DNA of 34,713 nt from Chthoniobacterales bacterium (GCA_013695925.1 JACCZO010000180.1:1-34713), one strand, 5' to 3'; numbered from the stretch's first letter, positions 1 to 34,713 are shown. The notes: generated by a model from the letters alone, not told the origin. Program-made: numbers and translations.

Positions 1-1
1 C

Positions 2-12203: not shown

Positions 12204-12776
12204 TCAACGGGGCGGCCGCGTGATGCCGCCGGACCGAAGTACGGCGCTGCTGGTCAGATTCGTTGCCCGGAAAATCTTTACTTCCGCTTCCACTTTATCG
12301 AGCGCCTTGGTCTCGGCGGTGATGGTCGCATCCTGCTCTTTCGGCAACACCCTGGCGGCGTTCGCCGCGTCGGTGAAGACGGCCTTCAGCTCGGGCGATT
12401 CCTTGGCCAGCTCTTTCGCCTGCGGACTCTTGAGCCACGTCTGCACCTGATCGCTTTGAGTCGCGAACTGTTCCGTCCGTTGTTTGATGACGGCTTTCAG
12501 AACTCCAAGAGAATTCTCGGCCTGGCGCAATAAATCGTCGGTCAGGGCACGGGTCGGCGCGGCGGATTCCTCGGCGGCGAGCGCAAAGTGATCCGGCACC
12601 ACAATCGGTGTGCCTTTTTCGAGATCGCCGATCTGGTTGAGCTGCGGGTTCAAACGCAAAAGCGCGACCTCCATTTCCGCCTGGGTCGTCTTGGGCGTGT
12701 CCCTCGTTGGCTCGGCCAGTAGTCGTTTGGCCAGGGTTTTGACCGTCTTTTCACCTTTTAATTCTGCGATGTTCAT
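12204..12776 (-). CDS. Hypothetical protein, last gene of the eCIS operon (possible LysM-like N-terminus, helical C-terminal half)
   Basis: The 190-aa ORF has a GGAGGA Shine-Dalgarno 8 nt before its ATG. Its composition is not shadow-like, and I recognise no family. Confidence 0.6.
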   Translation of the reverse strand: MNIAELKGEKTVKTLAKRLLAEPTRDTPKTTQAEMEVALLRLNPQLNQIGDLEKGTPIVVPDHFALAAEESAAPTRALTDDLLRQAENSLGVLKAVIKQRTEQFATQSDQVQTWLKSPQAKELAKESPELKAVFTDAANAARVLPKEQDATITAETKALDKVEAEVKIFRATNLTSSAVLRSGGITRPPR

Positions 12777-12809
12777 GACTTCTTCCTCCGCTGCGTTTTT
12801 TTTGATTCG

Positions 12810-14141
12810 TTAGGCTCCGATGATGTTCAACGGCTGCCAGGGCCCGTCCAGGGCGACGCCGTTAATCAGGATGGGTCCCCCAACAATGTTGCCGAGAACG
12901 GTAAAAGCTTTTTCGTTGGCCGGTTTCAGGTCCAACCCGATGGTGTTGCGTCCGCATTGCACCCGGTTCTCCGCCGCGATGATGGTGGTCGCGGTAACGA
13001 CGGCGCCGGCCGGCATTTTTTCGCCGGTGCAGGCGCAATGATTGCCGGTGAAACGGCAACTGCCCGTGACCAAAATCTCGGCCAGCGCGCTCCGTCCATA
13101 ACCATGCAGCGAATTGGCGGTGATCCCGGCCTGTTCATTCGCCGGGACGGCCGCGGCCGCAAAGGCATTGACCGTGCTGACCCGGCTGAGAGTCGAATGC
13201 GAATCGAAGGCCCTGAAAACGCCGCTGGATGAGGATGCGCCGATCCCGGCGATGCGGATGGCCTGCCAGGGCGCGCTCGCGTCTTCGTTAGGCGTGATCT
13301 GCCGCTTGATCAGGTTATCAGCGATTTCGATATTCACGATCGGGCCCACAACCAAAATGCCGGCAGCGGTATTCGAGAACTGGGCCACGGGCGCGATGTT
13401 CGTGATGGAGTTGTCGCTCACCCGCACATCGAGGCTGTTCTCAACCCGGATGCCGGCGATGACCGCGGCGAGCGGCGAGTTGGTCCCGACCGAGCTGATC
13501 GCGTTGTCCGAGATGGCGCCTTCAAAGACGCCGCGCAGCAGAATGGCCGCGATCTCCGTCGCCTTGTCGGTGGTGCCTTCGGCGACCGCGATGTTGATCA
13601 ACTCGTTCCCGAGCACCTTCACGCTCCCGGCCACACTTCCCGGTTGCATGATGATGCCATTGCCCTCGACCGCGTTGAAAACGTTGTCTTCCACCAGGGC
13701 CGAGACGAGCAGGGTCTCGATCGAGAGTCCGTTCCCGCGCAAGCCCTGGAAACGATTTCCTCGCACGACAATCGGCAGGAGATCGATCGGGATTAACCCC
13801 TGCACGAGGCGGATTCCATTCTGCGTCTCGCCAGTGAAATTCGCGATCCGGTTGTCGGTCATCCGCACCCCGCCCGTGCCGACGACAATACCGTCGCCTT
13901 TTACCGGCGAGATCGTGTTATCGCTGATCTCCAGCTCCGGAAAAGCGAACCCGGTCGCGGAGATTCCGGCGGTGGCGGTACCGAAGATGAAGTTACGCGC
14001 CAGGACAGTGTCGCTCGTGTAATAGCTCGAGCCGCCGAGCACGATCCCATTTTCGCTGCATTGCATCAGGTTTGTGCTCGCAATAGAACGCCCCGAGCAG
14101 GAGGGTGCCGCTGTCGTCCTTTTGACCCAGTGAAAACGCAA
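12810..14141 (-). CDS. Right-handed parallel beta-helix repeat protein (distal fibre / receptor-binding part), probably the 3' portion of a frameshifted longer gene
   Basis: It carries repeated xxDNxI/GNGI beta-helix rungs (ISDNTISPVKGDGIVV, MTDNRIANF, VEDNVFNAVEGNGIIM, ISDNAISS, VSDNSITN). The start is uncertain (TTG 14141 or ATG 14066), and it overlaps the upstream ORF by 74-149 nt. Confidence 0.7.
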   Translation of the reverse strand: MRFHWVKRTTAAPSCSGRSIASTNLMQCSENGIVLGGSSYYTSDTVLARNFIFGTATAGISATGFAFPELEISDNTISPVKGDGIVVGTGGVRMTDNRIANFTGETQNGIRLVQGLIPIDLLPIVVRGNRFQGLRGNGLSIETLLVSALVEDNVFNAVEGNGIIMQPGSVAGSVKVLGNELINIAVAEGTTDKATEIAAILLRGVFEGAISDNAISSVGTNSPLAAVIAGIRVENSLDVRVSDNSITNIAPVAQFSNTAAGILVVGPIVNIEIADNLIKRQITPNEDASAPWQAIRIAGIGASSSSGVFRAFDSHSTLSRVSTVNAFAAAAVPANEQAGITANSLHGYGRSALAEILVTGSCRFTGNHCACTGEKMPAGAVVTATTIIAAENRVQCGRNTIGLDLKPANEKAFTVLGNIVGGPILINGVALDGPWQPLNIIGA

Positions 14142-15936
14142 CTCCCGCTTGCGCGCGCAAAAAGTTGTCGCGGATTTTGGTGAGGAGAAGGAAGCCCGGA
14201 TCGAGCAGAATGCCGGCCAGCGGCCCCGATCCCTCCGCCGGCGGCGCGACGATCAGTCGCTCGATCGTTGTCCCCACGGAATTACTCAATTGGATGGCGG
14301 GCCCAGCAGTAATGGCGGCGATGGTGTGGATCGTGAAATAATCGAGCGTGCACCATTGCGCCTGGCTGATGATGAAAGCCGCGGAGGCGCGCGGCGCGAT
14401 CACGACCGTGGCGGCACCCTGCCCGCGCACCCGCACGGCAAACGCGCCGTTCATCAAGACCGGCTTCTCGGCGAGATTAAAAACTCCCGGACCGAGACAA
14501 ACCGTGCCACCGGTCTTGAGCACTTGGTTGACCGCCTGCTGAATGGTGAGCGTCCCCTGGTTGTGTTGCTCGGCCGTGATGCAGATCGTGCAATCGCAGC
14601 TTTCCCCCTCGCCTAACGGCGGCGGCCAAAAGGTGCGGCAATCGATCACCGTCTCCGGCAAGGTGATGAGCGCCAGCCGGCAGTAATGATGATGCACCCC
14701 GCGCGGGGGGGCTTCGTCCAGTTCCTCGACTGAAGCGTCCGCCGTTCGCGCCACGAAAATCCAGTAATCTCCGGAGCGAAACGCGCCGCCATCCGGCTCG
14801 GTCGTAAACGTGATCTCGACGCCGTCTTCCAGAATAACCGGCGTGCCGGAGGCGGGGACATCGATCACCGCCGGCCCGCCGGATTCCTGATCCCAGCGTT
14901 TGATCCGGGTGTGCCGGTCGGCCTCCGTCAGGTTCTGTCCATTCACCGGAAAATCGCCCGCGTTTAGCGCTGTCTTGAGCGTGATTGTGCGGCTGGAATC
15001 ATCCACCGTATCGACCTGTCGGATGTCGCCCGGTTTGCCGGCGAATTCGCGCCAATCATCCGTGAGCTCGACCCAGTCGCCCGGGCTAAAGCGGCGCACG
15101 GAATCCCAGACCGCACGATCGACCGTCAGGGTCAGGTCGTTTTCTATCGCGCTCACCCCGCTCGCGACCGAGGCGTTGTCGCGCGACCATTTGAAAGTCG
15201 CGTCCCCGATCTCGCCGCCGTCGTGGATTTCGACCCGGTAAGTCCGGTTCTCGAGCCCGCGATAACCGCCGCTCGGAGGGATGAGGCAGGGATCGTCAGA
15301 GGTCGCGACGCCGACACCTTTGGTCGTTAGGCGTCCGGCTGTTGGGCGGACAATATCGAGCCAGCCTTTGATCTGCTCGTCGGGCGTGGCGCAGGTCACC
15401 CCGGGGCCGACATCCGGCAAAACGCGCACCTTCCAGGCCGTCTGCAAACGGGTCGTTGTATCAGGTCCACCGAGCGCGACTTCCCGCAGCTCCGGCTCTT
15501 CCACCGCCGTCACCTCCCGCTCCCAGACGTCGAGATGAACCAGATGCGGCCCGCCGGTCTTGGGCGAAGCCGTGGGATTCGGAAAATAGGGCTGCTCTTC
15601 GTAGGGCAGCGGTTTCACCCCGCGCGACTCGGCCAGAATCGCGTCAAACTCGAGGTCGCCCGCGCCATGGTTCTCGGCCTGCAAACCGTGAACGTAGATC
15701 CGGCCGCGTCCGATCGTCATCGCGCCGCCGCTCAGTTGAATTTCGAATCCTTCCGGCGTCTCCAGCGGGACGACGCAGCGCCCGATGATGTCGATCGTCT
15801 CCGAGCGCCAGCGGCGATCGAGAATCTCGTTCCATTCATTCCATTCCGCGTCGAGTTGCACCCGCCCCTGCTGCATCAGGACGTTTTGGAAATCGTTCTT
15901 CGGATTAAACCGTTGCCGGCTGATGTCTGAGCTCAT
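13993..15936 (-). CDS. DUF6519-like tail-fibre protein with the beginning of a beta-helix domain
   Basis: The N-terminus DISRQRFNPKNDFQNVLMQQGRVQLDAEWNEWNEI matches the DUF6519 signature as I remember it. Beta-helix rungs start near residue 470. The last ~30 aa (AFYCEHKPDAMQRKWDRARRLELLHERHCPGA) look out of frame. Confidence 0.72.
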   Translation of the reverse strand: MSSDISRQRFNPKNDFQNVLMQQGRVQLDAEWNEWNEILDRRWRSETIDIIGRCVVPLETPEGFEIQLSGGAMTIGRGRIYVHGLQAENHGAGDLEFDAILAESRGVKPLPYEEQPYFPNPTASPKTGGPHLVHLDVWEREVTAVEEPELREVALGGPDTTTRLQTAWKVRVLPDVGPGVTCATPDEQIKGWLDIVRPTAGRLTTKGVGVATSDDPCLIPPSGGYRGLENRTYRVEIHDGGEIGDATFKWSRDNASVASGVSAIENDLTLTVDRAVWDSVRRFSPGDWVELTDDWREFAGKPGDIRQVDTVDDSSRTITLKTALNAGDFPVNGQNLTEADRHTRIKRWDQESGGPAVIDVPASGTPVILEDGVEITFTTEPDGGAFRSGDYWIFVARTADASVEELDEAPPRGVHHHYCRLALITLPETVIDCRTFWPPPLGEGESCDCTICITAEQHNQGTLTIQQAVNQVLKTGGTVCLGPGVFNLAEKPVLMNGAFAVRVRGQGAATVVIAPRASAAFIISQAQWCTLDYFTIHTIAAITAGPAIQLSNSVGTTIERLIVAPPAEGSGPLAGILLDPGFLLLTKIRDNFLRAQAGVAFSLGQKDDSGTLLLGAFYCEHKPDAMQRKWDRARRLELLHERHCPGA

Positions 15937-15954: not shown

Positions 15955-18039
15955 TTAGGTTGAATAAAAGACTCCCGCTTCGAGGCCGAAGCGCAGGTAT
16001 TCACGGAGCCGCGCGCGGATGTTGCTCTCGCGTTGCGGCTGAAAAAGATCATGAAAGGCGCCCATCTCCGCCTCGTCGTCTGCCCCGGCGCGGATCTGCT
16101 CCGGGGCACTGCGGCGGAGCTGGCCATAGCCGGGATCGGCGTAGCCTAACGACGTGAAGGAAGGCACGAGCCAGGGCACGACCGCGTCCCGGATCGCATC
16201 CCGTTCCCCCTGGCTGATCGTGCCGCTGCCCGATTGCTTGATCGCCGCCGCCACCTCCTCCGCGATTTCGAGATCGGGCTGGCAGCGATAGCGCCGCGGG
16301 ACGCGGGAAGTCAGTGGGAGCCAGGAAAAACGCACGCAACCGGTCTGGCGCCGCTCCGAGCGCACGGGCGCGGAATCATCCTCCGTCCGCGCGTAAAAGA
16401 TGCTGTTGGACGCAAGCTTGAGCAGCTCGGTGTGTATCGTCCCGATGATCGTGCTGTTCACGACCGAGACGGTACCGCCGGCGTCGTCTCCATTGAGCGC
16501 GGCATAGGCCACGTTGCTGTCGCCGTTCGCATCCACAATGCTATGCCGGATGAGAACCGTCGCGTTGGCCGGGGCGCGAATCGCACCGACGATCGAGTGG
16601 TCGATCTCGATCTCGAGCGGCATCTCATCCTGCTCGATCAGGAGCGAAGGCTCACCGGGCGAGCCGGGCGCGCCGTCGATGCCTAACGAAAAGCCAGGCA
16701 CGAGCGCGCAATGGACAAGGCGCAACTTGCGCAGCCCGTTCCCCGCGCCGCTTACAATCCGGATCGGGCCGCCCGCGATGAGGAGACCGTTCAATGTCAC
16801 CTCGGCATCTTCACCGCCCGTGATGTCGATCGGCCCCGCCACGATCAGCGTCGGACGATGTTCGTTGGCCGCGCGAAATTCAAATCGCACGCCGGGGTCG
16901 AGTGCGATGGAGGGCGTCTCTTCAAATCGCCCGCTGTCACTCAACTCCACCACCCCACCACTCGCGCGTCCGTCGAGCGCGGGCTGGATCGGGCCGGTTG
17001 AGGCCACGACATCGACTGGCCCGAGCGCGGCAGCGAAGGTCGGTCTGCGTTCGTACTCGCCCCCGCCCATCCCGGCGCTGAATCCGTAGTGAAACATGAC
17101 GCGCGGCGCTTCCTCCTGCGCTTCCTGGAAAACAATCCGACCGAGCTCGGGATCGATCGCGACCAGCGTTTTCGGCGGAGTGTGCGCCCAGGTGGTGCCG
17201 GAGGCATCGGTATCCGAGAGATTGCAGACGCTAAGGTCGCTGAGGCCGAAACCCTCGATCTCCATGCTCAGATCTGCGCCGTAATAACTCGCGAGCGAGG
17301 CATTGAGCACGCGCCGGCTGATCGGTTCCGGCACATTGATTGGCTCCGCCAGATGGGTTATCGACTTCTCGGTCTGCGGCCGATTGAAGAGCGGCATGTT
17401 CGCGCCTAACGGATTGAAAAGAAAGCGCTGCTCATCGACCCGTGCGGCGGGCGAACTGCGGAGGCGATAAGCGTTCAGGCGCCAGAGGAAAATCCCGATG
17501 TTCGGGATGTTGTATTTGCCTTCGCTGCGCGCGATGTGCCGGACGTCGATCGTGCGCGCGCTCGTTTCGAAGGCCGTGCCGAGGCGCTCCAGCGGCTCCC
17601 ATTCGCGCATGTCCGGCGCATAGTAGTTCGTTAGGCGAATATGGTTCATCCACTGCGTCCAGCCGAGCAGTTGGAAAAACTCGACCGCGCGCGCGTTCCA
17701 GCCGGTGACATCACGCGCCAGTTGTTCGAGGACCGAGGCGGTCCCTTTGCGGCGCCGATAACCGATCGTGTTCGCCACCTCCGCGCGCGGTGTGAGCTGG
17801 TCGGGCCCGATCGGATGGAGCGAGCGATATCCGATGAGATCGCCGATGTAGGGCAGGACCCAGGGCGCGCAGGTCTCGATGAACTGGTTATCGTAAAGCT
17901 GCTCGAGATCTTCCTCCAGAATGCCGGCCTGCTGGTTGATGAGGGCGAGCAATTGTCGGAGCGGCTCGCCGCGCTCGGCGTCGCGAATGCGATGGACCGC
18001 GGGAAGGAGGTGATAGAGCCGATCGGGATCGTAGCTCAT
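15955..18039 (-). CDS. Phage tail protein, P2 gpI-like baseplate wedge component (Afp12-like)
   Basis: The N-terminus is LYHLLPAVHRIRDAERGEPLRQLLALINQQAGILEEDLEQLYDNQFIETCAPWVLPYIGDLIGY. Its start overlaps the upstream stop (ATGA). Confidence 0.8.
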   Translation of the reverse strand: MSYDPDRLYHLLPAVHRIRDAERGEPLRQLLALINQQAGILEEDLEQLYDNQFIETCAPWVLPYIGDLIGYRSLHPIGPDQLTPRAEVANTIGYRRRKGTASVLEQLARDVTGWNARAVEFFQLLGWTQWMNHIRLTNYYAPDMREWEPLERLGTAFETSARTIDVRHIARSEGKYNIPNIGIFLWRLNAYRLRSSPAARVDEQRFLFNPLGANMPLFNRPQTEKSITHLAEPINVPEPISRRVLNASLASYYGADLSMEIEGFGLSDLSVCNLSDTDASGTTWAHTPPKTLVAIDPELGRIVFQEAQEEAPRVMFHYGFSAGMGGGEYERRPTFAAALGPVDVVASTGPIQPALDGRASGGVVELSDSGRFEETPSIALDPGVRFEFRAANEHRPTLIVAGPIDITGGEDAEVTLNGLLIAGGPIRIVSGAGNGLRKLRLVHCALVPGFSLGIDGAPGSPGEPSLLIEQDEMPLEIEIDHSIVGAIRAPANATVLIRHSIVDANGDSNVAYAALNGDDAGGTVSVVNSTIIGTIHTELLKLASNSIFYARTEDDSAPVRSERRQTGCVRFSWLPLTSRVPRRYRCQPDLEIAEEVAAAIKQSGSGTISQGERDAIRDAVVPWLVPSFTSLGYADPGYGQLRRSAPEQIRAGADDEAEMGAFHDLFQPQRESNIRARLREYLRFGLEAGVFYST

Positions 18040-25320: not shown

Positions 25321-25334
25321 AACGGTGCGTGGGC

Positions 25335-25404: not shown

Positions 25405-25428
25405 CTGCGGTTTGCCTATTTCGTTTCA

Positions 25429-26911: not shown

Positions 26912-26939
26912 TTTTCGTTAGCAAGAAAGACGGTTTCAT

Positions 26940-27021
26940 CCGCAGATTTCGCAGATTTACGCAGATTTCTTTCCGGCACTTCGGCGCTTCCTAAATCTGC
27001 GAAAATCTGCGTCATCCGCGG
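26940..27021. repeat. Palindromic CGCAGATT-repeat element (copy C, gene-less)
   Basis: CCGCAGATTTCGCAGATTTACGCAGATTT (26940-26968) is mirrored by AAATCTGCGAAAATCTGCGTCATCCGCGG (26993-27021). It fills the gap between the tube-like and LysM genes. Confidence 0.72.
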
Positions 27022-27026
27022 ACCTT

Positions 27027-27689
27027 TCATGAAATCCCCTTGATCCCGAAGTTGGCGAAGGATCCGTTAGGCGCGAGGCCCGCGAGCCGTTCCTTTTGCT
27101 GCTGGTAAATCATGTAAAGACTCCCCGCCTTGGCCTCGAAACCGACATCGTTCACACTCAGGACGCGCAGCCCGAGGCTGACCTTGGCCCGGATGGGATT
27201 GAGGTTCGGATCGAAGGCTTCCTCCGTGATGCTGAATTCCGTCAGGCGCACCGGGATGATCCGGTTCTTGCTCCAGATAAAAAGCGTAAGCGCGGACTGC
27301 ATCGGGATGATCTCGAGCGTGCCCGATTTCGAGAGCGCGTTGTTCGATTGCAACTGCTCGCTCGTCGGATAAACGATCGCCTCCAGCGCCGCGAGCTGCG
27401 GATGAATCCCGACCTCGACCGCGTTCGTATTTTGATCCGGAAACTCGAGCTGATCGGTCGCGTCGATCTCCGCATCGAGCTTGATCGTTTCCACCGGCGG
27501 CCCCTTCAGCCGCAATATCTCGGAACGATCACCGCCGCCATCCGCGCTCACGCCTTGGATTTGGAGCGAACGCGTCAGCGTGTCGGGATTGTATTGCAGC
27601 GAAATAATCCGCTGCACTGCGCCCGAGTCCGGATTCACGAGGACGATGCCGCCCTTGAGCAGTTTTGGTGAATTGGGAAAAGTGCTCAT
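27027..27689 (-). CDS. CIS tube-like protein (tube initiator / Afp7 N-terminal-like)
   Basis: The 220-aa product contains LLKGGIV...ISLQYNPDTLTRSL...LRLKGPPVETIKLDAEIDATD...IIPVRLTEFSITEEAFDPNLNPIRAKVSLGLRVL, resembling gp19/CIS-tube-fold proteins of eCIS loci. Confidence 0.68.
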   Translation of the reverse strand: MSTFPNSPKLLKGGIVLVNPDSGAVQRIISLQYNPDTLTRSLQIQGVSADGGGDRSEILRLKGPPVETIKLDAEIDATDQLEFPDQNTNAVEVGIHPQLAALEAIVYPTSEQLQSNNALSKSGTLEIIPMQSALTLFIWSKNRIIPVRLTEFSITEEAFDPNLNPIRAKVSLGLRVLSVNDVGFEAKAGSLYMIYQQQKERLAGLAPNGSFANFGIKGIS

Positions 27690-29162: not shown

Positions 29163-31957
29163 GGCAGCGGATGGCGGGCGTTTAGTTGTTCCGCGAGGTC
29201 GACGATCTTGCTTTGGTGTCCGGCGATGATGTTACTGACCCGGCCGACGAGGGCGCGCAAAAGCAGGCGAGTCCGTTCCGGCGTCGTCGTTAGGGCAAAA
29301 AAATCGTCGCCGAGAACGATGGAAGTGCCCGGGCCGGCCGACCACGAAGTGGTTTTCGCCGCCGGATCGCGCTTCGCGTTCAGATCAGCGCGGACCCGAT
29401 TGAGCAGAGTCTTGTAACGGTCGGCCAGGCCCGCGACCGCAAAGCGATCGTCATCGGTCGGGAGGGCGGGCGGCGGCGTTAGGCCAAACTGCGCGGCGAT
29501 CAGCTTCATCGTTTCTTCGTAGTAGCTGTTGGTCCATTTCTTCTTCGGGGGACGCGATTCCACCATCGTGGAATAGGTGCTGGCCGTTTCCTGGTGGGAC
29601 CATTTCAACCAGTCCGCCAAGAGAGTGATGGCGTCGGCCACGCCGGATTTCTCGCCCGCGGCGACGGTCAGTTTGTCCACCGGAAGCTTCGGCCGGGCAA
29701 AGGACGGATCCGCCGCCAGCATGACGAAAAGCGAGTAACTGTCGGAGTTCTGCAGCGCCTGGTCCGGCGTCAGGCTGGCGATGCGGCGTTCGTGCCGGTA
29801 AGCGATATCAGTCGTGCCGGCCGTCTTCCCTGCGAGGCCCAGCCCCGGCGTGCCGTGGGCGGTTTCGTGGATGAAATTGCGTTTCCGTTCCTGCTTGCCG
29901 GCGCTCACGAAGGTCGGGCAAAGCGTCAGCGTCGCCTTCTTGCCTTCATCTTCGTTGTAGGCAATCGCTACCGTGCAGGTGCCGTTGCATAGCGTCCCGC
30001 AGCGATGTCGCTTTTTCTTCGCCACGATGTCCATTTGCGCCCGAACCTTCCCCAGGTTCGCGTCCAGCGTCGTCATCATCGCGGCCCCGCTGCCCGCGCC
30101 GCCTCCCCCCCCGAAAAACTCGTCCCGCAGATCGTTCGTACTTGCATCCGTTCCTGAGGTGAGAAGCCGGCGGGCCTTGTCGATTAATCCCTGCGCCTCC
30201 GTCCGTACCGCGACGAAATCCGTTTCGACGTTGGCGCTGCACGGCCCGGTGGCCGCCGTCTTTTTGCAATCAGGAACCGCGGAGGTGGCCCCGGCGGGCC
30301 CGATCTCGACCTCGCGCAAGCTGCGATAGTCGAGCCGTCCGTCGCCGACATCGGGCTTCGGGTCCGGCTTGCGTTTGCCGGTGTGTCCGACCGTCTTCAA
30401 TTCCGCATCGACCGCATTGATCCGCCGGTCGGCCAGGGTCCGGCCGATTGCCGGGGTCGTCGCCTCATCCTCGCTTACCCGACCGATGAGATCGAGATCG
30501 TCTCCGCTGTGCGCTCCGCCGCCGGCGATGAGGACGGCAAACTTTCCCTCCGAGCCGATCGCGACATCGTTGCGCTCAAAAAAGACGCTATGGGCGCCAG
30601 ACGAACCCATCCCGCTCTTGCGCCCCGTCACCTCCAGGCCCGCCGGAACGGCCCGCTGCACGGCGGGCGGCAGTGCGCTCTGCTGCAAGACGTGGGTCAA
30701 CTCGTGCGCGAGCAACTGGCGGCCGGCATTTGTCTCCGGGGCAAAGCTGCCGCCGGCAAAAACGACATCCTGCCCGACCGTGTAGGCCCGGGCCTGGACG
30801 GCGCGGGCCGATTCCGCCGCGCGTCCGTCGCGATGAATCCGCACGCTTCCAAACTCGTAACCGAAACGATCTTCCATGAACTCGCGCGTCGCGCGGTCGA
30901 GCGGTTCTCCGGACGATTGCAGTACCTGATCGACGATCGGGGGCGCGCTGCCCACTTCCTGATGGCCCGCGGCCTTGCGCTGGAGGGTTCCTTCTTCTTT
31001 TTTCTTCGGTTCCTCGCTCGTTTCGCCGCTCAGTTTGAAATCCGGAGCCCACGGGCCTAACGAACGTCGCGGCCCCGCGGCCGGGGCCCCGGGGCGGAAA
31101 CCGGGATCCTGCCCCACCGCCCCGAAGGAGAGCGGCGAGGTGCGCGGCGTCAGCTGGCCGGGAGCGAGCATCCGGCTCGAGACGTAGGCGTTGATCATCT
31201 CTTGCTCGCTCGCCTTCTCTTCATCGCTCTTGAGGCCTTCGCGAAACTTCGCCTGGTCCGCCGCCATCCGCGCGGTCTCGGCCCGGAACTTTTCGGTCTC
31301 GCTGAGCGTGGTTTTTTTGTCGCGCGTCTTTTCTTTGCCTAACGGAATGCTGAAGGTCGCGACCACCTTGGTCGGTTTATCGACCGGCCCTTCATAGGTG
31401 ATTTTCATCTTCAGGCCGGGCCTGATCTTATCGAGCGGGATCTCGGGAATTCCGATCGGCAATTCCTTGTGCGTGGCCGCGAGGGTCGCGACCGCTCCGG
31501 CAACGGCGGCGCCGGTAATGATCTTCCCCGGCAAGGTCGAAATGAAGGCGTCTCCGAGCTCTTCTGCTTTTTTTGTGATCTCTTTGCCCTGCGGAGTTTC
31601 GAGAAACGCTTCGCCCACCTTCTTGGCTGCTTCTTTGTATTTTTCCTCTTCGGATTTCGGCTTGGCCGGTTCTTCGCGTTGCACGGCACCGCCGCTACCT
31701 AACGAACTGATTGAAGGGCGGCCCGTGCGCCCCCCGCCGACCGCCTCTTCGGCTACCCGGTCGGCCTCCTGCTCGTACTGGTCGCCGGGCTGATTAATCG
31801 CCAACTTGGTCTGTAACGATAGCCGTTGCCGTTTGCACTCGGCACACTCCCCGGTCGGCCCGGGAGTTCCGCCGCAGGCGCACTTGCGCTGCAGCGTTGG
31901 TTGGGCGGAAAGCTTGCTGGCTGTGGCTTGGACAGGCTGAGCGACAGTTACTCTCAT
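29159..31957 (-). CDS. DUF4157 domain protein 2 (Cys-rich leader, ~300 aa K/E-rich linker, DUF4157 with HELTH, C-terminal aspzincin-like HExxH domain)
   Basis: Its parts are LQRKCACGGTPGPTGECAEC, EQEADRVAE, PPIVDQVLQSSGEPLD...FGYEFGSVRIHRD...LLAHELTHVLQQ, and then a second motif set, FIHETAHG...GTTDIAY...LQNSDSYSLF. There are ATGA overlaps at both ends. Confidence 0.85.
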   Translation of the reverse strand: MRVTVAQPVQATASKLSAQPTLQRKCACGGTPGPTGECAECKRQRLSLQTKLAINQPGDQYEQEADRVAEEAVGGGRTGRPSISSLGSGGAVQREEPAKPKSEEEKYKEAAKKVGEAFLETPQGKEITKKAEELGDAFISTLPGKIITGAAVAGAVATLAATHKELPIGIPEIPLDKIRPGLKMKITYEGPVDKPTKVVATFSIPLGKEKTRDKKTTLSETEKFRAETARMAADQAKFREGLKSDEEKASEQEMINAYVSSRMLAPGQLTPRTSPLSFGAVGQDPGFRPGAPAAGPRRSLGPWAPDFKLSGETSEEPKKKEEGTLQRKAAGHQEVGSAPPIVDQVLQSSGEPLDRATREFMEDRFGYEFGSVRIHRDGRAAESARAVQARAYTVGQDVVFAGGSFAPETNAGRQLLAHELTHVLQQSALPPAVQRAVPAGLEVTGRKSGMGSSGAHSVFFERNDVAIGSEGKFAVLIAGGGAHSGDDLDLIGRVSEDEATTPAIGRTLADRRINAVDAELKTVGHTGKRKPDPKPDVGDGRLDYRSLREVEIGPAGATSAVPDCKKTAATGPCSANVETDFVAVRTEAQGLIDKARRLLTSGTDASTNDLRDEFFGGGGGAGSGAAMMTTLDANLGKVRAQMDIVAKKKRHRCGTLCNGTCTVAIAYNEDEGKKATLTLCPTFVSAGKQERKRNFIHETAHGTPGLGLAGKTAGTTDIAYRHERRIASLTPDQALQNSDSYSLFVMLAADPSFARPKLPVDKLTVAAGEKSGVADAITLLADWLKWSHQETASTYSTMVESRPPKKKWTNSYYEETMKLIAAQFGLTPPPALPTDDDRFAVAGLADRYKTLLNRVRADLNAKRDPAAKTTSWSAGPGTSIVLGDDFFALTTTPERTRLLLRALVGRVSNIIAGHQSKIVDLAEQLNARHPLP

Positions 31958-33249
31958 GGCCTCTCTGGCAGGCGGATCTTGCCCGCCTTGCTGTTGTAGT
32001 AATAACCGCGGTCGTCCGACCAGACGGTCACGATGACCCCCTTCTTCTGCCAGCCTTCGCGCCCGGTGATCCGCTTGTAGACAAGGGGCGTCTTAGGATC
32101 GGGCACGTGGAGGTAAATGCCCGTCTCCGTGCCCGGGCCGGCGCGCACCAGTTCCACATCGATCAGGTCGTCAAAGACGATATCGACTGCAGGAGGGCCA
32201 ACGTAGTGCATTTGCAGCAATACCCGCAGGACGCCTGAGTCGGGAAAGATGATGGGCACGATAACGGCATAGCGCGTCGTCGACGCGCCCCCCCCGAACT
32301 TCACATCCAGGCCATCGGAATAAGTCGGCGCCGAATCCTGCCCGTTGAACAGCACCTTCTGCTGACCGTGAGCGGTCGTGAATTCGAAGCGCGCGCTAAC
32401 TCCGGAAATTCCTTTCAGTGGTTGTTTCGAATGCGGATATGGAGCCGCCCCCGGTCCAGACCAATCCAGAAAGTAGCGAAGGAAGAACTCCTCCGCCTCA
32501 CCTTCATAGGCGACCAATCTGCCGACACACGTGCGGTGTCCCGCAGGACCATCTCCTTGGACCGGGCCTGTTCCCTCGACAAAGGCCCCCATAACGTAAT
32601 CAGGATTACATTCCCTGTTCTCGGTGTGCATCCAGATCGTAATATTGTCAGCCGACCACGGCTCTGTCGCCTTGGCAGTTGCCCCGGCGCTGGGCCCCTT
32701 GCCCGCCGGTTTGTCGTCGGGCGACCTGCTCAGGACTGGCCCCGTGGCCCGCCCCACGAGCTGTTGCTTAGCCAAATCGGCCCCCACGGTTTCCTGCAGC
32801 ATGGTCTCGGCTTTCCTCTCCGATTCATCGTCGGCGTCCCTGACTTCGAGGCGGGCAGGCACCGGAATCTCGCCCTCGCTCTGTTGGAGGAAGTGGGTCA
32901 ACTCGTGCTTCAGCAGGCGAAGTCCCTCGGCCGTGCCGGGAGCGAAACGGTCTTTGGCAAACGCGATGTGCGACCCCACTGTGTAGGCGTGGGCATCCAC
33001 CGCCTGCGCTGAATCCGCCGCGCTCGAATCGCTATGAATTCGCACCCGGCCAAAATCATGTCCGAAGCGCGCCTCCATTGCCACACGAGTGGACTCTTCC
33101 AACGGCTGCCCGGGGGAACGCAAAACCTGATGCACAATTGGTGGCGCAATCGCCGGCGCCGCATCATTGGCAGCGCGGCGCTGCAGACGTGCGTTCGCTG
33201 GCACACACTGGCAACTCAAAGCGGGCGACCGCTGGCCTTGGAAAATCAT
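31954..33249 (-). CDS. DUF4157 domain protein 1 (DUF4157 with HELTH + orphan ~270 aa beta-rich C-terminal domain)
   Basis: It contains PPIVHQVLRSPGQPLEESTRVAMEARFGHDFGRVRIHSD...AYTVGSHIAF...LLKHELTHFLQQ. I preferred the ATG at 33249, which overlaps the upstream stop (ATGA), to the TTG at 33267. Confidence 0.85.
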   Translation of the reverse strand: MIFQGQRSPALSCQCVPANARLQRRAANDAAPAIAPPIVHQVLRSPGQPLEESTRVAMEARFGHDFGRVRIHSDSSAADSAQAVDAHAYTVGSHIAFAKDRFAPGTAEGLRLLKHELTHFLQQSEGEIPVPARLEVRDADDESERKAETMLQETVGADLAKQQLVGRATGPVLSRSPDDKPAGKGPSAGATAKATEPWSADNITIWMHTENRECNPDYVMGAFVEGTGPVQGDGPAGHRTCVGRLVAYEGEAEEFFLRYFLDWSGPGAAPYPHSKQPLKGISGVSARFEFTTAHGQQKVLFNGQDSAPTYSDGLDVKFGGGASTTRYAVIVPIIFPDSGVLRVLLQMHYVGPPAVDIVFDDLIDVELVRAGPGTETGIYLHVPDPKTPLVYKRITGREGWQKKGVIVTVWSDDRGYYYNSKAGKIRLPERP

Positions 33250-33500
33250 TCCGTTCCTCCTTTCCAAATCGTGCGCGCAATCTGCCGACCAGCGCGCGAC
33301 GGTTTCGTTAGACTTGCGGCGCGTAGCGGGCCGGCCTCGATTTTTTCCGGACTCTGATGCCAGGCCACCGGGAGGCCTTTTTCCATCAGCAATCCACGCA
33401 ACTCGCTTTCCAGCACGTCGCCGATCCGCCAGCGATCACCCGGGGCAAAGCCGTGCAGGACCAGCTCCTCGATGTGGACCTCGATCTCGCGCGGATTCAT
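33246..33500 (-). CDS. Small conserved-looking hypothetical protein (84 aa), translationally coupled to the first DUF4157 gene
   Basis: It starts at the ATG at 33500 (MNPREIEVHIEELVLHGFAPGDRWRIGDVLESELRGLL). The 37 codons upstream in the track ORF translate repeat element D. Confidence 0.6.
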   Translation of the reverse strand: MNPREIEVHIEELVLHGFAPGDRWRIGDVLESELRGLLMEKGLPVAWHQSPEKIEAGPLRAASLTKPSRAGRQIARTIWKGGTE

Positions 33501-33514
33501 AGGACTGAGGTGAT

Positions 33515-33598
33515 CCGCAGATTTCGCAGATTCACGCAGATGATTTGGGGCGCTTTTTCCTTTCCTCAAATCTGCGGACATCTGCGTCATCTGCAGAT
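33515..33598. repeat. Palindromic CGCAGATT-repeat element (copy D, gene-less)
   Basis: CCGCAGATTTCGCAGATTCACGCAGAT (33515-33541) is mirrored by AAATCTGCGGACATCTGCGTCATCTGCAGAT (33568-33598). It fills the gap between the ATPase and the small gene. Confidence 0.72.
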
Positions 33599-33607
33599 TA
33601 TTTAGTC

Positions 33608-34713
33608 TCATCGCCAGCCTCCCAATTCCGCTTCGGTCAGCGGTTTTTCGAGCTTCTCGTATTCAAGGCGGGCCGCGCCTAACAAATGCGGCATTCGCAC
33701 CGGTTCGCCCGCATCGGCCGCGGCAAAGGCGGCATTGAGCGCGATGCTGCGAATGTTCCCGCCAGAAATCGAAAGGCGGGAAAGGGCGCGCAGGTCCAAT
33801 TGATCGGTCGGCGTTTTCGCAGGGAAAATTCTTTTCCAGATTTCCGCGCGCTGCGCCTGATCGGGAAAGGGAAACTGGACGATGAAGCGCAACCGGCGGA
33901 GGAAAGCCTGATCGAGCGCCTCCTTCATGTTGGTGGTCAGAATCGCCAGCCCGCGATAGGCCTCCATTCGCTGCAGGAGGTAGCTGATCTCGACGTTGGC
34001 GTAACGATCGTGGCTGTCTTTCACCTCGCTCCGTTTGCCGAAGAGCGCGTCGGCCTCGTCGAAGAGCAGGACCGCACCGCCTTCCTCCGCTGCATCGAAG
34101 ACGCGCCGCAGATTCTTTTCCGTCTCGCCGATGTACTTGCTCACCACCGCGCTGAGATCGATCCGGAAAAGATCGAGCCGCATTTCGTTCGCGAGGATTT
34201 CGGCGGCAAGCGTTTTGCCGGTGCCGCTCGGGCCGGCGAAGAGCGCGCTCAAGCCGAGCCCGCGGCTCGATTGCTCGGCGAAACCCCACTCGTCGTAGAC
34301 CCGGCCGCGCTGCCGCAGATGCTGTGCGATCGTCTTCAGCACGGTCATCTGTGGCGTCGGCAGGACGATATCGGCCCAGGTGGCGTTCGAGGTGATGCGC
34401 GGCGCAAGATCCTGCAGGCGCGGACGGGCCTGCAGCCGGCAGGCATCCCAGAGACTCGACTCCGATGGTTCGCCTAACAATCCCGTCGCGGTCGTCCGGA
34501 TCGCGGCGGTGCTGAAGTCGAATTGCGCAACCAAGTGGTCGAGATGTCCGTTCCAGTTGCGGGCGTTTTCCCCGATCGCCTGTTCCCAGGCGAGGCGCTG
34601 CTCCGCCCGAGTTGGCTTCGGCACCTCGATCGTCATCAGCGGCCGCTCTAGATCGCGTCGCGGCTCGCGCGTGGAGATGAGCAACGGCGTGCCCGTGAGC
34701 TCGATCCAGCGCG
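33608..34713 (-). CDS. AAA+ ATPase of the eCIS type (Afp15/Pvc15-like), N-terminus beyond the right edge
   Basis: The frame stays open from 34684 to the window edge. It has Walker A (GPSGTGKT), Walker B (VLLFDEADALF), SKYIGETEKNLRRVF and LAILTTN..ALDQAFLRR, which is a CDC48/FtsH-like AAA core. Confidence 0.9.
   Translation of the reverse strand, partial: RWIELTGTPLLISTREPRRDLERPLMTIEVPKPTRAEQRLAWEQAIGENARNWNGHLDHLVAQFDFSTAAIRTTATGLLGEPSESSLWDACRLQARPRLQDLAPRITSNATWADIVLPTPQMTVLKTIAQHLRQRGRVYDEWGFAEQSSRGLGLSALFAGPSGTGKTLAAEILANEMRLDLFRIDLSAVVSKYIGETEKNLRRVFDAAEEGGAVLLFDEADALFGKRSEVKDSHDRYANVEISYLLQRMEAYRGLAILTTNMKEALDQAFLRRLRFIVQFPFPDQAQRAEIWKRIFPAKTPTDQLDLRALSRLSISGGNIRSIALNAAFAAADAGEPVRMPHLLGAARLEYEKLEKPLTEAELGGWR

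What the first reader, a model, noticed from the sequence alone, without database searches (positions are those of the whole stretch)
12204..34713. Baseplate/spike/effector half of an extracellular contractile injection system (eCIS) operon
About 18 co-directional minus-strand genes form one operon. Its contents are an AAA+ ATPase, a small protein, three DUF4157 proteins, a tube-like protein, LysM, a gpD hub, a gpV spike, a PAAR-like tip, gp25, two large baseplate proteins, a gpI-like protein, a DUF6519/beta-helix fibre and a terminal unknown.

The window holds no capsid, portal, terminase, integrase or lysis genes, and no T6SS membrane-complex genes. The dedicated AAA+ ATPase together with DUF4157 proteins is the combination associated with eCIS (Afp/PVC/MAC-like) loci, not with prophages or T6SS. 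Sheath, tube, tape measure and cap genes should lie to the right of the window.

The locus carries the CGTTAGG heptamer at the same density as the core genes. This suggests it is long resident rather than recently acquired.
Basis: partly seen in the sequence, partly recalled or inferred. Interest (0 to 1): 0.72.

Follow-up and report, generated by a model that had tools for sequence, protein, structure and literature searches.

The report
Verrucomicrobial contractile injection system operon
This stretch is most of an ordinary phage-tail-like "contractile injection system" operon (loading ATPase, three toxin cargo proteins, spike, baseplate, tail fibre) from a soil verrucomicrobium, a kind of system already catalogued in thousands of genomes.

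Summary

Corrections:
- The window is the whole contig, so the AAA+ ATPase is cut at the contig end (about 268 N-terminal residues missing).
- The "DUF6519/beta-helix fibre" is one roughly 1040-aa gene split by a single extra A near 14076-14078.
- The PAAR-like gene is 23950-24267. The 90-aa ORF 23855-24127 is spurious.

Close relatives (Chthoniobacterales MAGs, ATPase 86-90% identical) carry sheath, tube, a baseplate-hub-like gene, a 211-228-aa ORF and a Pvc16_N cap directly upstream of the ATPase. They show no head genes and no T6SS genes. No tape measure could be identified. The structural genes are conserved, while the cargo block between the 84-aa gene and the tube initiator differs in every relative.

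CGTTAGG density is equal inside and outside the operon (1.33 against 1.23 per kb). In one relative the operon is five times richer than its flanks, so residence in the lineage is supported but long residence in this genome is not.

Verdict: a new member of a known kind, of modest interest. Extracellular release is inferred, not shown.

The parts
33608..34713 (-). C-terminal 367 codons of the Cis15/Afp15-like AAA+ ATPase, cut by the contig end. Walker A (GPSGTGKT) and Walker B (LLFDEAD) are present.
   Evidence: Pfam AAA E 8e-28. No stop codon upstream. The protein is on record on a 34713-base contig, so the window is the whole contig. Relatives are 635-641 aa with an N-terminal WHD domain (PF22977) and are 86-90% identical.
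33501..33607 (.). REP-like hairpin repeat (ATCTGCG family) inserted between the ATPase gene and the small gene
   Evidence: Repeat families D1/D3 and I10. RNA fold -42.6 kcal/mol, z -6.0. In L086 and L088 the ATPase gene and the 84-aa gene overlap with no spacer.
33246..33500 (-). Conserved 84-aa protein of unknown function that follows the ATPase. The mechanical 121-aa ORF includes the hairpin.
   Evidence: No family hit. Homologues sit directly after the ATPase in 20 related loci. 65-67% identical to the 81-84-aa genes of L086-L088.
31954..33267 (-). Cargo protein D1: short N-terminal region, DUF4157/eCIS_core domain (HELTH), and a unique C-terminal domain of about 255 aa with unknown function
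   Evidence: eCIS_core E 6e-29. The C-terminal part has no Pfam hit and no counterpart in the cargo of relatives.
29159..31957 (-). Cargo protein D2 (932 aa): about 350-aa Lys/Glu-rich N-terminal region carrying the LQRKCACGG...C..C motif, DUF4157 (HELTH), and an Aspzincin_M35 metalloprotease domain (HETAH ... GTTDIAY)
   Evidence: eCIS_core E 7e-32 and Aspzincin_M35 E 1.8e-9. 87% identical over its full length to the L087 932-aa gene. The first 470-494 residues are 64% identical to L082 1240 aa and L088 1457 aa, which have other C-termini.
27693..29162 (-). Cargo protein D3 (489 aa): N-terminal region with the same Cys motif, DUF4157 (HELAH), and a unique C-terminal domain of unknown function
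   Evidence: eCIS_core E 2.4e-30. The motif is shared with D2 and with the cargo of L082 and L002. The C-terminal domain has no Pfam hit. The AF2 single-sequence model is unusable, pLDDT 41.6.
27027..27689 (-). CIS_tube protein (220 aa), a tube-initiator-like component
   Evidence: PF19266 E 1.3e-8, above the cut-off. 84% identical to L002. Same length and position in all near relatives.
26933..27023 (.). REP-like hairpin (ATCTGCG family) in the spacer between the tube gene and the LysM-like gene
   Evidence: -49.4 kcal/mol, z -5.4. The same element occupies the same spacer in L082.
26549..26911 (-). LysM-fold baseplate protein (120 aa), like P2 gpX and T4 gp53
   Evidence: LysM E 0.067, Phage_tail_X E 0.078, PHROG baseplate hub E 2.4e-4. 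10 of 14 family members hit Phage_tail_X. The family profile touches T4 gp53 (E 0.089) and Anabaena All3321 (E 0.62). Support is weak but consistent.
25429..26556 (-). gpD/gp27-like baseplate hub (375 aa)
   Evidence: No direct Pfam hit. A profile of 17 homologues hits the N-terminal part of a VgrG chain (9rce_F) at E 2.2e-7. Conserved at 375 aa in near relatives.
24808..25320 (-). gpV/gp5 OB-fold spike (170 aa from the ATG). The mechanical 193-aa ORF extends into a second type of hairpin repeat at 25330-25406.
   Evidence: Phage_base_V E 3e-18. 170 aa in all relatives. Hairpin.
24272..24703 (-). GxxExxY / PD-(D/E)XK_3 gene 1. This is an insertion, not a system component.
   Evidence: PF13366 E 1e-35 and TIGR04256. 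Absent from the spike-PAAR spacer of L002, L082, L086, L087 and L088. Flanked by 38-nt direct repeats at 24710-24747 and 24282-24319.
23950..24267 (-). PAAR-like spike tip (105 aa)
   Evidence: ORF read-out. DUF4280 E 0.0036 and PAAR_motif E 0.057. The family profile hits the phiKZ PAAR protein 6p1z at E 5e-4. 88% identical to L002.
23388..23852 (-). GxxExxY / PD-(D/E)XK_3 gene 2. This is an insertion of about 577 bp placed exactly in the PAAR-stop/gp25-start overlap.
   Evidence: PF13366 E 3e-37. Junction comparison with L082 shows TGA on both sides, and gp25 now starts with GTG. Only 29% identical to gene 1.
23008..23373 (-). gp25-like baseplate wedge / sheath-initiator protein (121 aa)
   Evidence: GPW_gp25 E 6.7e-18. 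90% identical to L002.
20495..23011 (-). Baseplate J / gp6-like wedge protein (838 aa)
   Evidence: Baseplate_J E 2e-9, TIGR02243 E 9e-93. PDB chains 9gtp_1K (Baseplate protein J-like) and T4 gp6.
18036..20495 (-). Second gp6-like wedge protein (819 aa)
   Evidence: TIGR02243 E 1e-61, above the cut-off. PHROG baseplate wedge E 2e-22.
15955..18039 (-). 694-aa baseplate-periphery protein: Mu Gp48/P2 gpI-like N-terminus plus a central right-handed beta-helix
   Evidence: No direct family hit. More than 7500 homologues, nearly all about 690 aa and unannotated. 14 of 22 members hit Phage_Mu_Gp48 (best E 2e-5) and 2 hit Tail_P2_I. AF2 mean pLDDT is 56.7, but residues about 340-560 are confident. Foldseek top hits are pectate- and alginate-lyase beta-helices, E 2.7e-3 or weaker.
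12810..15936 (-). Tail fibre: DUF6519 (eBAP5 baseplate anchor) plus a C-terminal beta-helix. Split into 647-aa and 443-aa ORFs by one extra A (CAC AAA CCT, about 14076-14078).
   Evidence: DUF6519 E 1e-43 and Beta_helix E 3e-10. Orthologues 80-91% identical are single 1035-1047-aa proteins with both domains. Frame switch mapped. The N part is 87% and the C part 57% identical to L085. DUF6519 = eBAP5 fibre anchor (PMC12923769).
12204..12776 (-). Conserved terminal 190-aa helical protein of unknown function. Its position suggests a fibre-assembly factor (inference only).
   Evidence: No significant family hit. 60% identical to the 183-aa gene that follows the fibre gene in L085.

Best explanation
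Window 12204-34713 is the 3' 22.5 kb (about 80%) of an operon of roughly 28 kb. The operon encodes a phage-tail-like contractile injection system of the AFP/PVC/AlgoCIS ("eCIS") superfamily. It lies in the chromosome of a Chthoniobacterales (Verrucomicrobiota) bacterium, and the contig ends inside the ATPase gene.

**Shown by sequence**
- A Cis15-like AAA+ ATPase and a conserved 84-aa protein.
- Three cargo proteins, each built as N-terminal region + DUF4157 + variable C-terminal domain. One C-terminal domain is an aspzincin metalloprotease.
- A tube initiator, a LysM-fold protein, a gpD/gp27-like hub, a gpV OB-fold spike and a PAAR-like tip.
- gp25, two gp6-like wedge proteins and a Mu Gp48/P2 gpI-like beta-helix protein.
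- A DUF6519-anchored beta-helix tail fibre and a conserved terminal gene.

**Shown in close relatives only**
- Sheath, tube, a baseplate-hub-like gene, a short ORF and the Pvc16_N cap lie immediately upstream.

**Inferred from characterised systems**
- The particle assembles on the baseplate in the cytoplasm.
- The ATPase recognises the disordered N-terminal region of the cargo and loads it into the tube lumen. That region here carries a shared LQRKCACGG...C..C motif.
- The fibre's beta-helix binds, and perhaps cleaves, a surface polysaccharide on the target.
- Sheath contraction then drives spike, tube and cargo into the target cell.

The cargo block is a swappable cassette: the structural genes are conserved among relatives, but the cargo differs in each. 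In this copy the fibre gene carries a one-base frameshift, and two selfish-looking GxxExxY genes plus REP-like hairpins have been inserted between structural genes. Its present functionality is therefore uncertain.
For: - Family hits for all components.
- Synteny in 80 related loci and four near relatives, including sheath, tube and cap upstream and housekeeping boundaries.
- The window is the whole contig and the ATPase is truncated.
- Organism inferred from the names given to 80-91% identical proteins (Chthoniobacterales, Candidatus Udaeobacter).
- Cargo architecture and the shared N-terminal motif.
- Cargo variability, and a conserved loading module joined to different C-termini.
- No close relative among 50,697 phage records (best about 30% identity over part of the protein).
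- Literature: DUF4157 is an eCIS marker with odds ratio 2614 (PMC8213781). AlgoCIS DUF4157 proteins Cgo1 and Cgo2 fill the tube lumen (PMC8894135). Their disordered N-terminal region is required for loading, a process attributed to the AAA+ protein Alg15 (bioRxiv 10.64898/2026.05.27.728243). DUF6519 is the eBAP5 fibre anchor and is often followed by a beta-helix (PMC12923769).
Against: - Sheath, tube and cap are not in the window and cannot be recovered for this genome.
- Four assignments rest on sub-threshold or family-level evidence: LysM, hub, PAAR and gpI-like.
- No tape measure was recognised in the window or in relatives.
- No lysis or release genes were seen.
- The fibre gene is frameshifted, and insertions break the PAAR-gp25 translational coupling.
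- Members of the same superfamily in Anabaena and Streptomyces are not released from the cell (PMC8894136, PMC11126660). The extracellular mode is therefore an inference.
Confidence: 0.85

Rival explanations
1. Same machine, different mode of action. The particles stay inside the producer, either free in the cytoplasm or anchored to a membrane, and act in regulated cell death, DNA release or development. This is what is reported for Streptomyces CIS and the Anabaena thylakoid-anchored CIS. They would not be released to attack other cells.
For: - The ATPase is 54-65% identical to those of Streptomyces and heterocystous cyanobacteria, and the gene order is the same.
- Streptomyces locus L065 has a giant ORF, mechanically 2702 aa, between the ATPase and the tube initiator, in the position of the S. 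davawensis Tme gene (PMC11126660).
- No lysis or release cassette appears in the window or in relatives' flanks.
- Anabaena CIS proteins stay in the cell pellet (PMC8894136).
Against: - A DUF6519 (eBAP5) fibre with a beta-helix tip is present. That class is catalogued as eCIS receptor-binding fibres (PMC12923769).
- A hydropathy scan found no convincing transmembrane segment in the fibre or baseplate-periphery proteins of the kind that anchors the Anabaena system. The only windows above 1.6 in this group are in the 819-aa wedge protein (maximum 2.21, six windows) and one in the fibre's beta-helix ORF (1.64); these were not examined further.
- The cargo varies from strain to strain, including an M35-type protease. 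This pattern fits antagonism between organisms.
Confidence: 0.2
2. The locus is a decaying, no longer functional copy. The fibre is truncated before its receptor-binding beta-helix, and mobile insertions disturb expression of the spike-tip and baseplate genes.
For: - A +1 A insertion splits the fibre gene relative to 1035-1047-aa orthologues.
- A 577-bp insertion sits in the PAAR/gp25 overlap and changes the gp25 start to GTG.
- A hairpin insertion separates the ATPase gene from the 84-aa gene.
- A relative (L088) shows fragmented sheath, PAAR and baseplate genes.
Against: - All other ORFs are intact and of the same length as their orthologues.
- A single-base indel in a metagenome-assembled contig may be an assembly error.
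- The inserted genes are co-directional and need not stop transcription. No terminator-like excess was found.
Confidence: 0.2
3. Tail module of a prophage, or an R-type tailocin.
For: The baseplate, spike and tube genes are homologous to myophage tail genes. The best phage hits are baseplate J proteins of Streptomyces phages.
Against: - No head, portal, terminase, integrase or lysis family in 34.7 kb.
- In relatives the complete operon is bounded by PPDK, NADH-dehydrogenase or FixO genes on one side and by a sulfatase on the other.
- A dedicated AAA+ ATPase, a Pvc16_N cap and DUF4157 cargo are present. These are eCIS markers (PMC8213781).
- Phage hits are only about 30% identical over part of the protein.
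Confidence: 0.02
4. A type VI secretion system.
For: The OB-fold spike and the PAAR-like tip are shared with T6SS. There are weak VgrG sub-domain hits.
Against: - No TssB/C, Hcp, TssJ/L/M, TssK or ClpV family hit in the window or in relatives.
- The sheath in relatives is of the Phage_sheath_1 type.
- The cap is of the Pvc16_N type.
Confidence: 0.01

Closest known systems
AlgoCIS of Algoriphagus machipongonensis (PMC8894135; bioRxiv 10.64898/2026.05.27.728243)
   Same: - Cargo built as disordered N-terminal region + DUF4157 + variable C-terminal domain, with a metalloprotease-type C-terminus predicted in one cargo protein.
- Cargo pairs of one system share N-terminal sequence.
- A dedicated AAA+ ATPase.
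- gp25, gp6-like, spike and PAAR baseplate components.
- Tail fibres.
   Different: - Different phylum.
- Direct sequence searches of the window's proteins against solved structures found only distant matches. No AlgoCIS chain matched with significance; the best was 7aef_q at E 0.9.
- The fibre here is anchored by DUF6519/eBAP5.
Tme-harbouring CIS group of Streptomyces davawensis (PMC11126660) and other Streptomyces CIS
   Same: - Same synteny: sheath, tube, cap, ATPase, DUF4157 protein(s), then tube initiator, hub, spike, PAAR, gp25 and wedge proteins.
- The group is described as spread across distant phyla.
- D2-type cargo keeps a conserved N-terminal module of about 470 aa and swaps its C-terminus. 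This matches the domain-exchange idea proposed for Tme.
   Different: - The window has three shorter DUF4157 proteins (437, 932 and 489 aa), not one ORF of more than 2000 aa.
- No tape-measure similarity was found in PHROGs, and the hydropathy scan found no hydrophobic window above 1.6 in D2 or D3. Coiled-coil content was not assessed.
- The Streptomyces systems act in the producer's development or cell death.
Thylakoid-anchored CIS of Anabaena sp. PCC 7120 (PMC8894136)
   Same: - Two DUF4157 proteins as putative lumen cargo.
- The ATPases of heterocystous cyanobacteria are 59-65% identical to the window's.
- A LysM-containing tube-initiator relative, All3321, is touched by the profile of the 120-aa protein.
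   Different: - No convincing transmembrane helix in the fibre. One hydropathy window in the beta-helix ORF reaches 1.64.
- No sign of a Cis19 crown protein. The paper that defines the eBAP domains treats DUF6519 as eBAP5, distinct from the crown's eBAP4 (PMC12923769).
- No thylakoids in Verrucomicrobiota (general knowledge).
eCIS loci of Candidatus Udaeobacter / Chthoniobacterales already catalogued (Geller et al. 2021, PMC8213781, toxin EAT13)
   Same: - Same bacterial order.
- An eCIS locus whose toxin is flanked by DUF4157 genes.
- Homologues 80% identical to the window's fibre are named Candidatus Udaeobacter sp..
   Different: - The cargo differs: EAT13 is an actin cross-linking toxin.
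- That paper lists no Afp13-type fibre for the locus, whereas a DUF6519 fibre is present here.
Afp (Serratia entomophila) and PVC (Photorhabdus)
   Same: Same overall set of parts: sheath, tube, gp25, gp6-like pair, VgrG-like spike, PAAR, fibre, AAA+ ATPase and Pvc16-type cap.
   Different: - The gene order differs. Here the ATPase and cap lie in the middle of the operon and the cargo lies upstream of the baseplate genes. In Afp and PVC the ATPase and cap are near the 3' end with the toxins after them (from my own knowledge of those loci).
- PVC cargo lacks DUF4157 (bioRxiv 10.64898/2026.05.27.728243).

Membership tests
eCIS / AFP-PVC-like contractile injection system superfamily | Baseplate core: a gp25-like protein plus gp6/Baseplate_J-like wedge proteins | tested here: met
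   GPW_gp25 E 6.7e-18. Baseplate_J E 2e-9. TIGR02243 hits at E 9e-93 and E 1e-61, both above the cut-off.
eCIS / AFP-PVC-like contractile injection system superfamily | Spike complex: gpD/gp27-like hub, gpV/gp5 OB-fold spike and PAAR-like tip | tested here: met
   Phage_base_V E 3e-18. The hub family profile hits VgrG at E 2e-7. For PAAR: DUF4280 E 0.0036, and the family profile hits a PAAR protein at E 5e-4. The hub and PAAR rest on profile-level evidence only.
eCIS / AFP-PVC-like contractile injection system superfamily | Dedicated AAA+ ATPase (Afp15/Cis15-like) | tested here: met
   AAA E 8e-28 with intact Walker motifs. 54-90% identical to ATPases that sit next to a Pvc16_N cap in 52 of 59 loci.
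eCIS / AFP-PVC-like contractile injection system superfamily | Contractile sheath, inner tube and Pvc16_N (DUF4255) cap | not testable with these tools
   These genes lie beyond the contig end. The source genome was not found in genome or metagenome collections. They are present directly upstream in the near relatives L082/L083, L086, L087 and L088 and in L002.
eCIS / AFP-PVC-like contractile injection system superfamily | DUF4157/eCIS_core-bearing cargo, or other linked toxins | tested here: met
   Three eCIS_core proteins at E 2e-30 to 7e-32, one of them with an Aspzincin_M35 domain.
eCIS / AFP-PVC-like contractile injection system superfamily | No phage head or packaging genes and no T6SS membrane complex | tested here: met
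   None were found in 34.7 kb. Relatives' complete operons are bounded by housekeeping genes.
eCIS / AFP-PVC-like contractile injection system superfamily | Release of free particles that bind targets through tail fibres (the extracellular mode) | not testable with these tools
   A fibre gene of the eBAP5 class is present but frameshifted. Release requires experiment.
Tme-harbouring CIS group (S. davawensis type) | A DUF4157 ORF immediately upstream of the baseplate genes, within the conserved synteny | tested here: met
   The D1-D3 genes lie directly upstream of the CIS_tube gene. The order matches Streptomyces loci L065 and L079.
Tme-harbouring CIS group (S. davawensis type) | That ORF is the largest in the cluster and shows tape-measure homology, transmembrane helices and coiled coils | tested here: not met
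   - PHROGs gave no hit for D1-D3 or for L082 1240 aa.
- The hydropathy scan found no window above 1.6 in D2 or D3 and only two marginal ones in D1, maximum 1.72.
- D2, at 932 aa, is shorter than the intact fibre.
- Remote homology below HMMER sensitivity is not excluded.
Thylakoid-anchored CIS (Anabaena) | Transmembrane domain in the fibre (Cis13), a Cis12 extension and a Cis19 crown | tested here: not met
   No convincing transmembrane window in the fibre or the 694-aa protein; one window in the beta-helix ORF reaches 1.64. The fibre anchor is DUF6519/eBAP5 (PMC12923769). Cis19 and Cis12-extension homology were not searched directly.
Prophage / R-type tailocin | Head, portal and terminase genes (prophage), or a lysis cassette without ATPase and cargo (tailocin) | tested here: not met
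Type VI secretion system | TssB/C sheath, Hcp, the TssJ/L/M membrane complex, TssK and ClpV | tested here: not met
   No such family was hit in the window. Relatives have a Phage_sheath_1 sheath and a gp19-type tube.

The most novel reading that the evidence does not exclude
The word TCGTTAGGC fills this genome at about 1.3 per kb, in every reading frame and on both strands, as DNA-uptake sequences do in other bacteria. It appears to travel with the injection-system operon.

In the relative GCA_049691355.1 the operon carries 1.23 copies per kb, several at orthologous positions, while 13 kb of its flanks carry 0.23 per kb. The operon also sits in three different chromosomal contexts among close relatives.

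The unexcluded reading is this. The operon is exchanged laterally among soil Chthoniobacterales, outward from a word-rich lineage such as this one. The word itself, if it is an uptake or recombination signal, would bias that spread.
Probability: 0.1. Interest if true: 0.6.

Novelty: new member of a known kind. Interest (0 to 1): 0.3.

Why it matters
Chthoniobacterales, including Candidatus Udaeobacter, are reported to be among the most abundant soil bacteria and are almost uncultured (general knowledge). A conserved injection machine whose cargo differs from strain to strain points to ongoing antagonism with neighbouring cells or protists in soil.

The locus adds two cargo C-terminal domains of unknown function and one M35-type protease cargo to the pool of candidate toxins. 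It also shows a clean example of a conserved loading module (N-terminal region plus DUF4157) joined to different C-termini, which is of interest for engineering cargo.

None of this changes what is known about how such systems work.

Tried and rejected
**Recovering the missing right-hand part**
- The 121-aa ORF is on record on only a 1.1-kb read-assembly contig besides this one.
- An exact 52-mer from the contig end found nothing in metagenome contigs.
- The best genome-collection hit is only 66-69% identical.
- The protein record shows that the window is the entire contig.

**Searches that gave little or nothing**
- Single-sequence searches of the hub, LysM, 90-aa, 694-aa and tube proteins against solved structures gave nothing useful. 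Profiles built from relatives were needed.
- The 90-aa ORF 23855-24127 was rejected as PAAR. It is Arg-rich with no hits, and it overlaps the conserved 105-aa PAAR-like gene in another frame.
- The AF2 model of the 694-aa protein is poor in its N-terminal 240 residues, so the gpI-like call rests on Pfam hits of family members, not on the fold.
- The single-sequence AF2 model of the D3 C-terminal domain reached only pLDDT 41.6 and was not searched.
- A PHROGs search for tape-measure similarity in the DUF4157 proteins and in relatives' 211-301-aa ORFs found none.
- The promoter and terminator scan found no promoter-like sites (3.3 expected) and terminator-like sites only slightly above the shuffled mean (27 against 21.2, sd 4.7).
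- Rfam found only a tRNA.
- Literature searches for the heptamer and for GxxExxY gave nothing relevant.

**Hypotheses rejected**
- Prophage, tailocin and T6SS readings, for the reasons given under the rival explanations.

Full report
**Observation.** The window has 62% G+C. Positions 1-12000 hold ordinary housekeeping genes on both strands: Rho, a DUF4112 protein, GlnE, a rhomboid, a diacylglycerol-kinase-like protein, AsmA, RsmD, Kdo transferase and a family-25 glycosyltransferase. A tRNA-Glu lies at 11021-11096.

From 12204 to the last base, every supported gene is on the minus strand. Start/stop overlaps occur at several junctions.

**Component identities.** These hits pass curated cut-offs:
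- AAA (33608-34711)
- eCIS_core, the former DUF4157, three times (31954-33267, 29159-31957, 27693-29162), the middle one also with Aspzincin_M35
- CIS_tube (27027-27689)
- Phage_base_V (24808-25389)
- GPW_gp25 (23008-23373)
- Baseplate_J plus TIGR02243 (20495-23011), and TIGR02243 again (18036-20495)
- DUF6519 (13993-15936) and Beta_helix (12810-14141)

Four assignments needed more work.
- **120-aa protein.** It has only sub-threshold LysM and Phage_tail_X hits. However, 10 of 14 family members hit Phage_tail_X, and the family profile touches T4 gp53 and the Anabaena protein All3321.
- **375-aa protein.** It has no direct hit, but a profile of 17 homologues matches the N-terminal part of a VgrG chain at E 2e-7.
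- **PAAR-like tip.** This is not the 90-aa ORF, which is an Arg-rich artefact. It is a 105-aa gene at 23950-24267 in another frame. It gives DUF4280 E 0.0036, and its family profile matches the phiKZ PAAR protein at E 5e-4.
- **694-aa protein.** It belongs to a family of more than 7500 unannotated proteins of almost constant length. Of 22 members, 14 hit Phage_Mu_Gp48 and 2 hit Tail_P2_I. Mu Gp48 and P2 gpI are the same kind of baseplate protein (general phage knowledge). The confident central part of an AlphaFold model is a right-handed beta-helix resembling pectate and alginate lyases, with weak Foldseek E-values.

The 84-aa and 190-aa proteins remain without a family, but both are conserved in position.

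**Corrections to the anatomy.**
1. The ATPase reading frame has no stop upstream, and its product is on record on a contig of exactly 34713 bases. The window is therefore the whole contig and the ATPase is cut. Relatives are 635-641 aa with an N-terminal winged-helix domain, so about 268 residues are missing.
2. The fibre is one gene. Orthologues 80-91% identical are single proteins of 1035-1047 aa with both DUF6519 and Beta_helix. The frame switch maps to CAC AAA CCT, where the reading frame of the orthologous proteins requires CAC AAC CTG, which means one extra A. The anchor part is 87% identical to the relative and the beta-helix part only 57%. This is the usual pattern of a conserved attachment domain and a fast-evolving receptor-binding domain.
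3. Two GxxExxY/PD-(D/E)XK_3 genes flank the PAAR gene. They are absent at these junctions in all six relatives examined and are only 29% identical to each other. One sits exactly in the ATGA overlap of the PAAR and gp25 genes, with TGA on both sides. They are insertions, not parts of the machine.
4. Strongly folding REP-like hairpins occupy three intergenic spaces and inflate some mechanical ORFs.

**What lies to the right.** The source genome could not be found, so relatives were used. The ATPase finds relatives at 54-69% identity across cyanobacteria, Chloroflexota, Acidobacteriota, Actinomycetota, Pseudomonadota and even methanogens.

Of 59 loci with at least 8 kb upstream:
- all 59 continue the ATPase N-terminally;
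- 52 have a Pvc16_N cap upstream on the same strand;
- 43 have a sheath, a gp19-type tube and a T4_baseplate-like gene there.

Protein-level searches found much closer relatives named Chthoniobacterales (ATPase 86-90%). Their contigs show sheath (532 aa in L082/L083 and L087, 673 aa in L086, fragmented in L088), tube 174, a T4_baseplate-like gene, a 211-228-aa ORF, cap about 415 and ATPase about 638. An 81-84-aa gene (called as 125 aa in L082-L084), the cargo and then the same structural genes at the same lengths as in the window follow. The series ends with the 1037-aa fibre and a 183-aa gene.

The operons are bounded by PPDK, by NADH-dehydrogenase genes plus a sigma-54 activator, or by FixO on one side, and by a sulfatase on the other. 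There are no head genes and no T6SS genes. The window thus holds about 22.5 kb of an operon of roughly 28 kb. No tape measure was recognised. The short ORF before the cap and the DUF4157 proteins are the two candidates, and PHROGs supports neither.

**Cargo.** All three DUF4157 proteins have the architecture described for AlgoCIS cargo: an N-terminal region, DUF4157 with HExxH, and a variable C-terminus. In AlgoCIS such proteins fill the tube lumen (PMC8894135). Their disordered N-terminal region is the part needed for loading, a process attributed to the AAA+ protein (bioRxiv 10.64898/2026.05.27.728243).

In the window, D2 and D3 share a motif, LQRKCACGGTPGP.GEC..C, with each other and with the cargo of L082 and L002.

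The cargo block differs in every near relative:

| Locus | Cargo block |
|---|---|
| L082 | Peptidase_C1 plus a 1240-aa DUF4157 protein |
| L086 | four DUF4157 proteins |
| L087 | the same 932-aa aspzincin protein plus a 256-aa unknown |
| L088 | 325 aa plus 1457 aa |

D2's first 470-494 residues are 64% identical to the 1240-aa and 1457-aa proteins, which then diverge. A loading module is therefore being recombined with different C-termini. L002 even keeps a 106-aa fragment copy of the tube-initiator N-terminus inside its cargo block.

**Mode of action.** The parts list, the eBAP5-type fibre (PMC12923769), the absence of a convincing fibre transmembrane segment in a hydropathy scan and the strain-variable cargo all favour a released, fibre-targeted particle.

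This is inference. The Anabaena system stays in the cell (PMC8894136). The Streptomyces systems, which share this gene order, act in the producer's own life cycle (PMC11126660). I give the intracellular alternative about 0.2.

Whether this copy works is a separate question. It depends on the fibre frameshift being real and on the effect of the insertions.

**The heptamer.** CGTTAGG occurs 45 times against 1.7 expected by chance, with an extended consensus T-CGTTAGG-C. It occurs in every frame and orientation that does not create an in-frame stop, and it supplies four stop codons. It is therefore a DNA-level signal.

The inference of long residence needs qualifying.
- The word is a feature of a sub-lineage. 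It reaches 0.7-1.6 per kb in the operons of near relatives, 0.3 in L002 and about 0 in other Verrucomicrobiota.
- In GCA_049691355.1 the operon has 32 copies in 26.1 kb against 3 in 13.3 kb of flanks (p 0.001), and three of four positions in the 694-aa gene are shared with the window.
- The chromosomal contexts also differ among relatives.

Together this suggests that the operon has moved among relatives. The window's genome looks like the native or donor type, but exchange with another word-rich relative cannot be excluded. The flank samples are small.

**Comparison and novelty.** eCIS loci number in the thousands in published catalogues: 1425 loci in PMC8213781 and 2585 in PMC12923769. DUF4157, Pvc16_N, CIS_tube and DUF6519 are the very markers used to find them. 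A Candidatus Udaeobacter locus has already yielded a validated toxin (PMC8213781).

This locus is a new member of a known kind. Its own contributions are two cargo domains of unknown function, a clear cargo-cassette comparison among relatives, and the incidental features listed separately. I score interest at 0.3.

Noticed in passing
window 23374-23949 and 24272-24808: Two GxxExxY / PD-(D/E)XK_3 genes, 29% identical to each other, are lineage-specific insertions inside the operon.
- One is a 577-bp insert placed exactly in the ATGA overlap of the PAAR and gp25 genes, with TGA on both sides.
- The other is flanked by 38-nt direct repeats (24710-24747 and 24282-24319, 87% identical) that are arms of a hairpin repeat.

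The pattern looks like small mobile gene cassettes. A full-text search of the held paper library for the family name returned three papers, none of them about the family.
   Followed up: partly
window 24710-24805, 26933-27023, 33508-33598 (half site 24282-24319); L082 17487-17613 and about 1653: A REP-like family of imperfect palindromes built from ATCTGCG(N)A repeats. It folds far better than shuffled sequence (z -3.8 to -6.0). It sits only in intergenic spaces of the operon here. One copy lies in the same tube/LysM spacer in a relative, and another lies near a housekeeping gene there. It lengthens mechanical ORFs, giving translations such as 'LRKSAKSAD'.
   Followed up: partly
window 9594-9680 and 25330-25406: A second family of G+C-rich hairpin repeats (GTTGTAGCCGGGGGCG...), with fold energies of -59 and -63 kcal/mol. 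One copy is at the RsmD/KdtA junction and one between the hub and spike genes. The latter explains the false N-terminal extension of the spike ORF.
   Followed up: partly
whole window (45 sites); relatives L082-L088: TCGTTAGGC (core CGTTAGG) occurs about 27 times more often than chance, on both strands and in all permitted frames. It provides the stop codons of four genes: ends at 6535 (TAG) and at 12810, 15955 and 27693 (TAA). Density and frame-independence resemble DNA-uptake or other genome-wide recognition words. It is confined to a sub-lineage of Chthoniobacterales. In one relative it is five times denser in the operon than in the flanks.
   Followed up: partly
window 11021-11096 (+): A tRNA-Glu (anticodon TTC) lies inside the 5' end of the mechanical glycosyltransferase ORF 10980-11939, about 1.1 kb from the end of the operon. 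The true glycosyltransferase start must be downstream of it.
   Followed up: no
L002 16044-16364: A 106-aa fragment copy of the CIS_tube N-terminus sits upstream of a fourth cargo gene in the Verrucomicrobiota MAG. It looks like a scar of recombination that swapped or added cargo cassettes at the conserved tube-initiator boundary.
   Followed up: no
L088 5909-6596, 20360-20635, 21026-21890: In one near relative the sheath, PAAR-like and baseplate J genes are called in fragments. Either the operon is decaying there or the long-read assembly has indel errors. This bears on how to read the single frameshift in the window's fibre gene.
   Followed up: no
L002 2201-3652 and L086 2662-4080: A sigma-54-dependent transcriptional activator lies immediately upstream of the sheath gene in two relatives but not in three others. 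It is a possible regulator of the operon in part of the clade.
   Followed up: no
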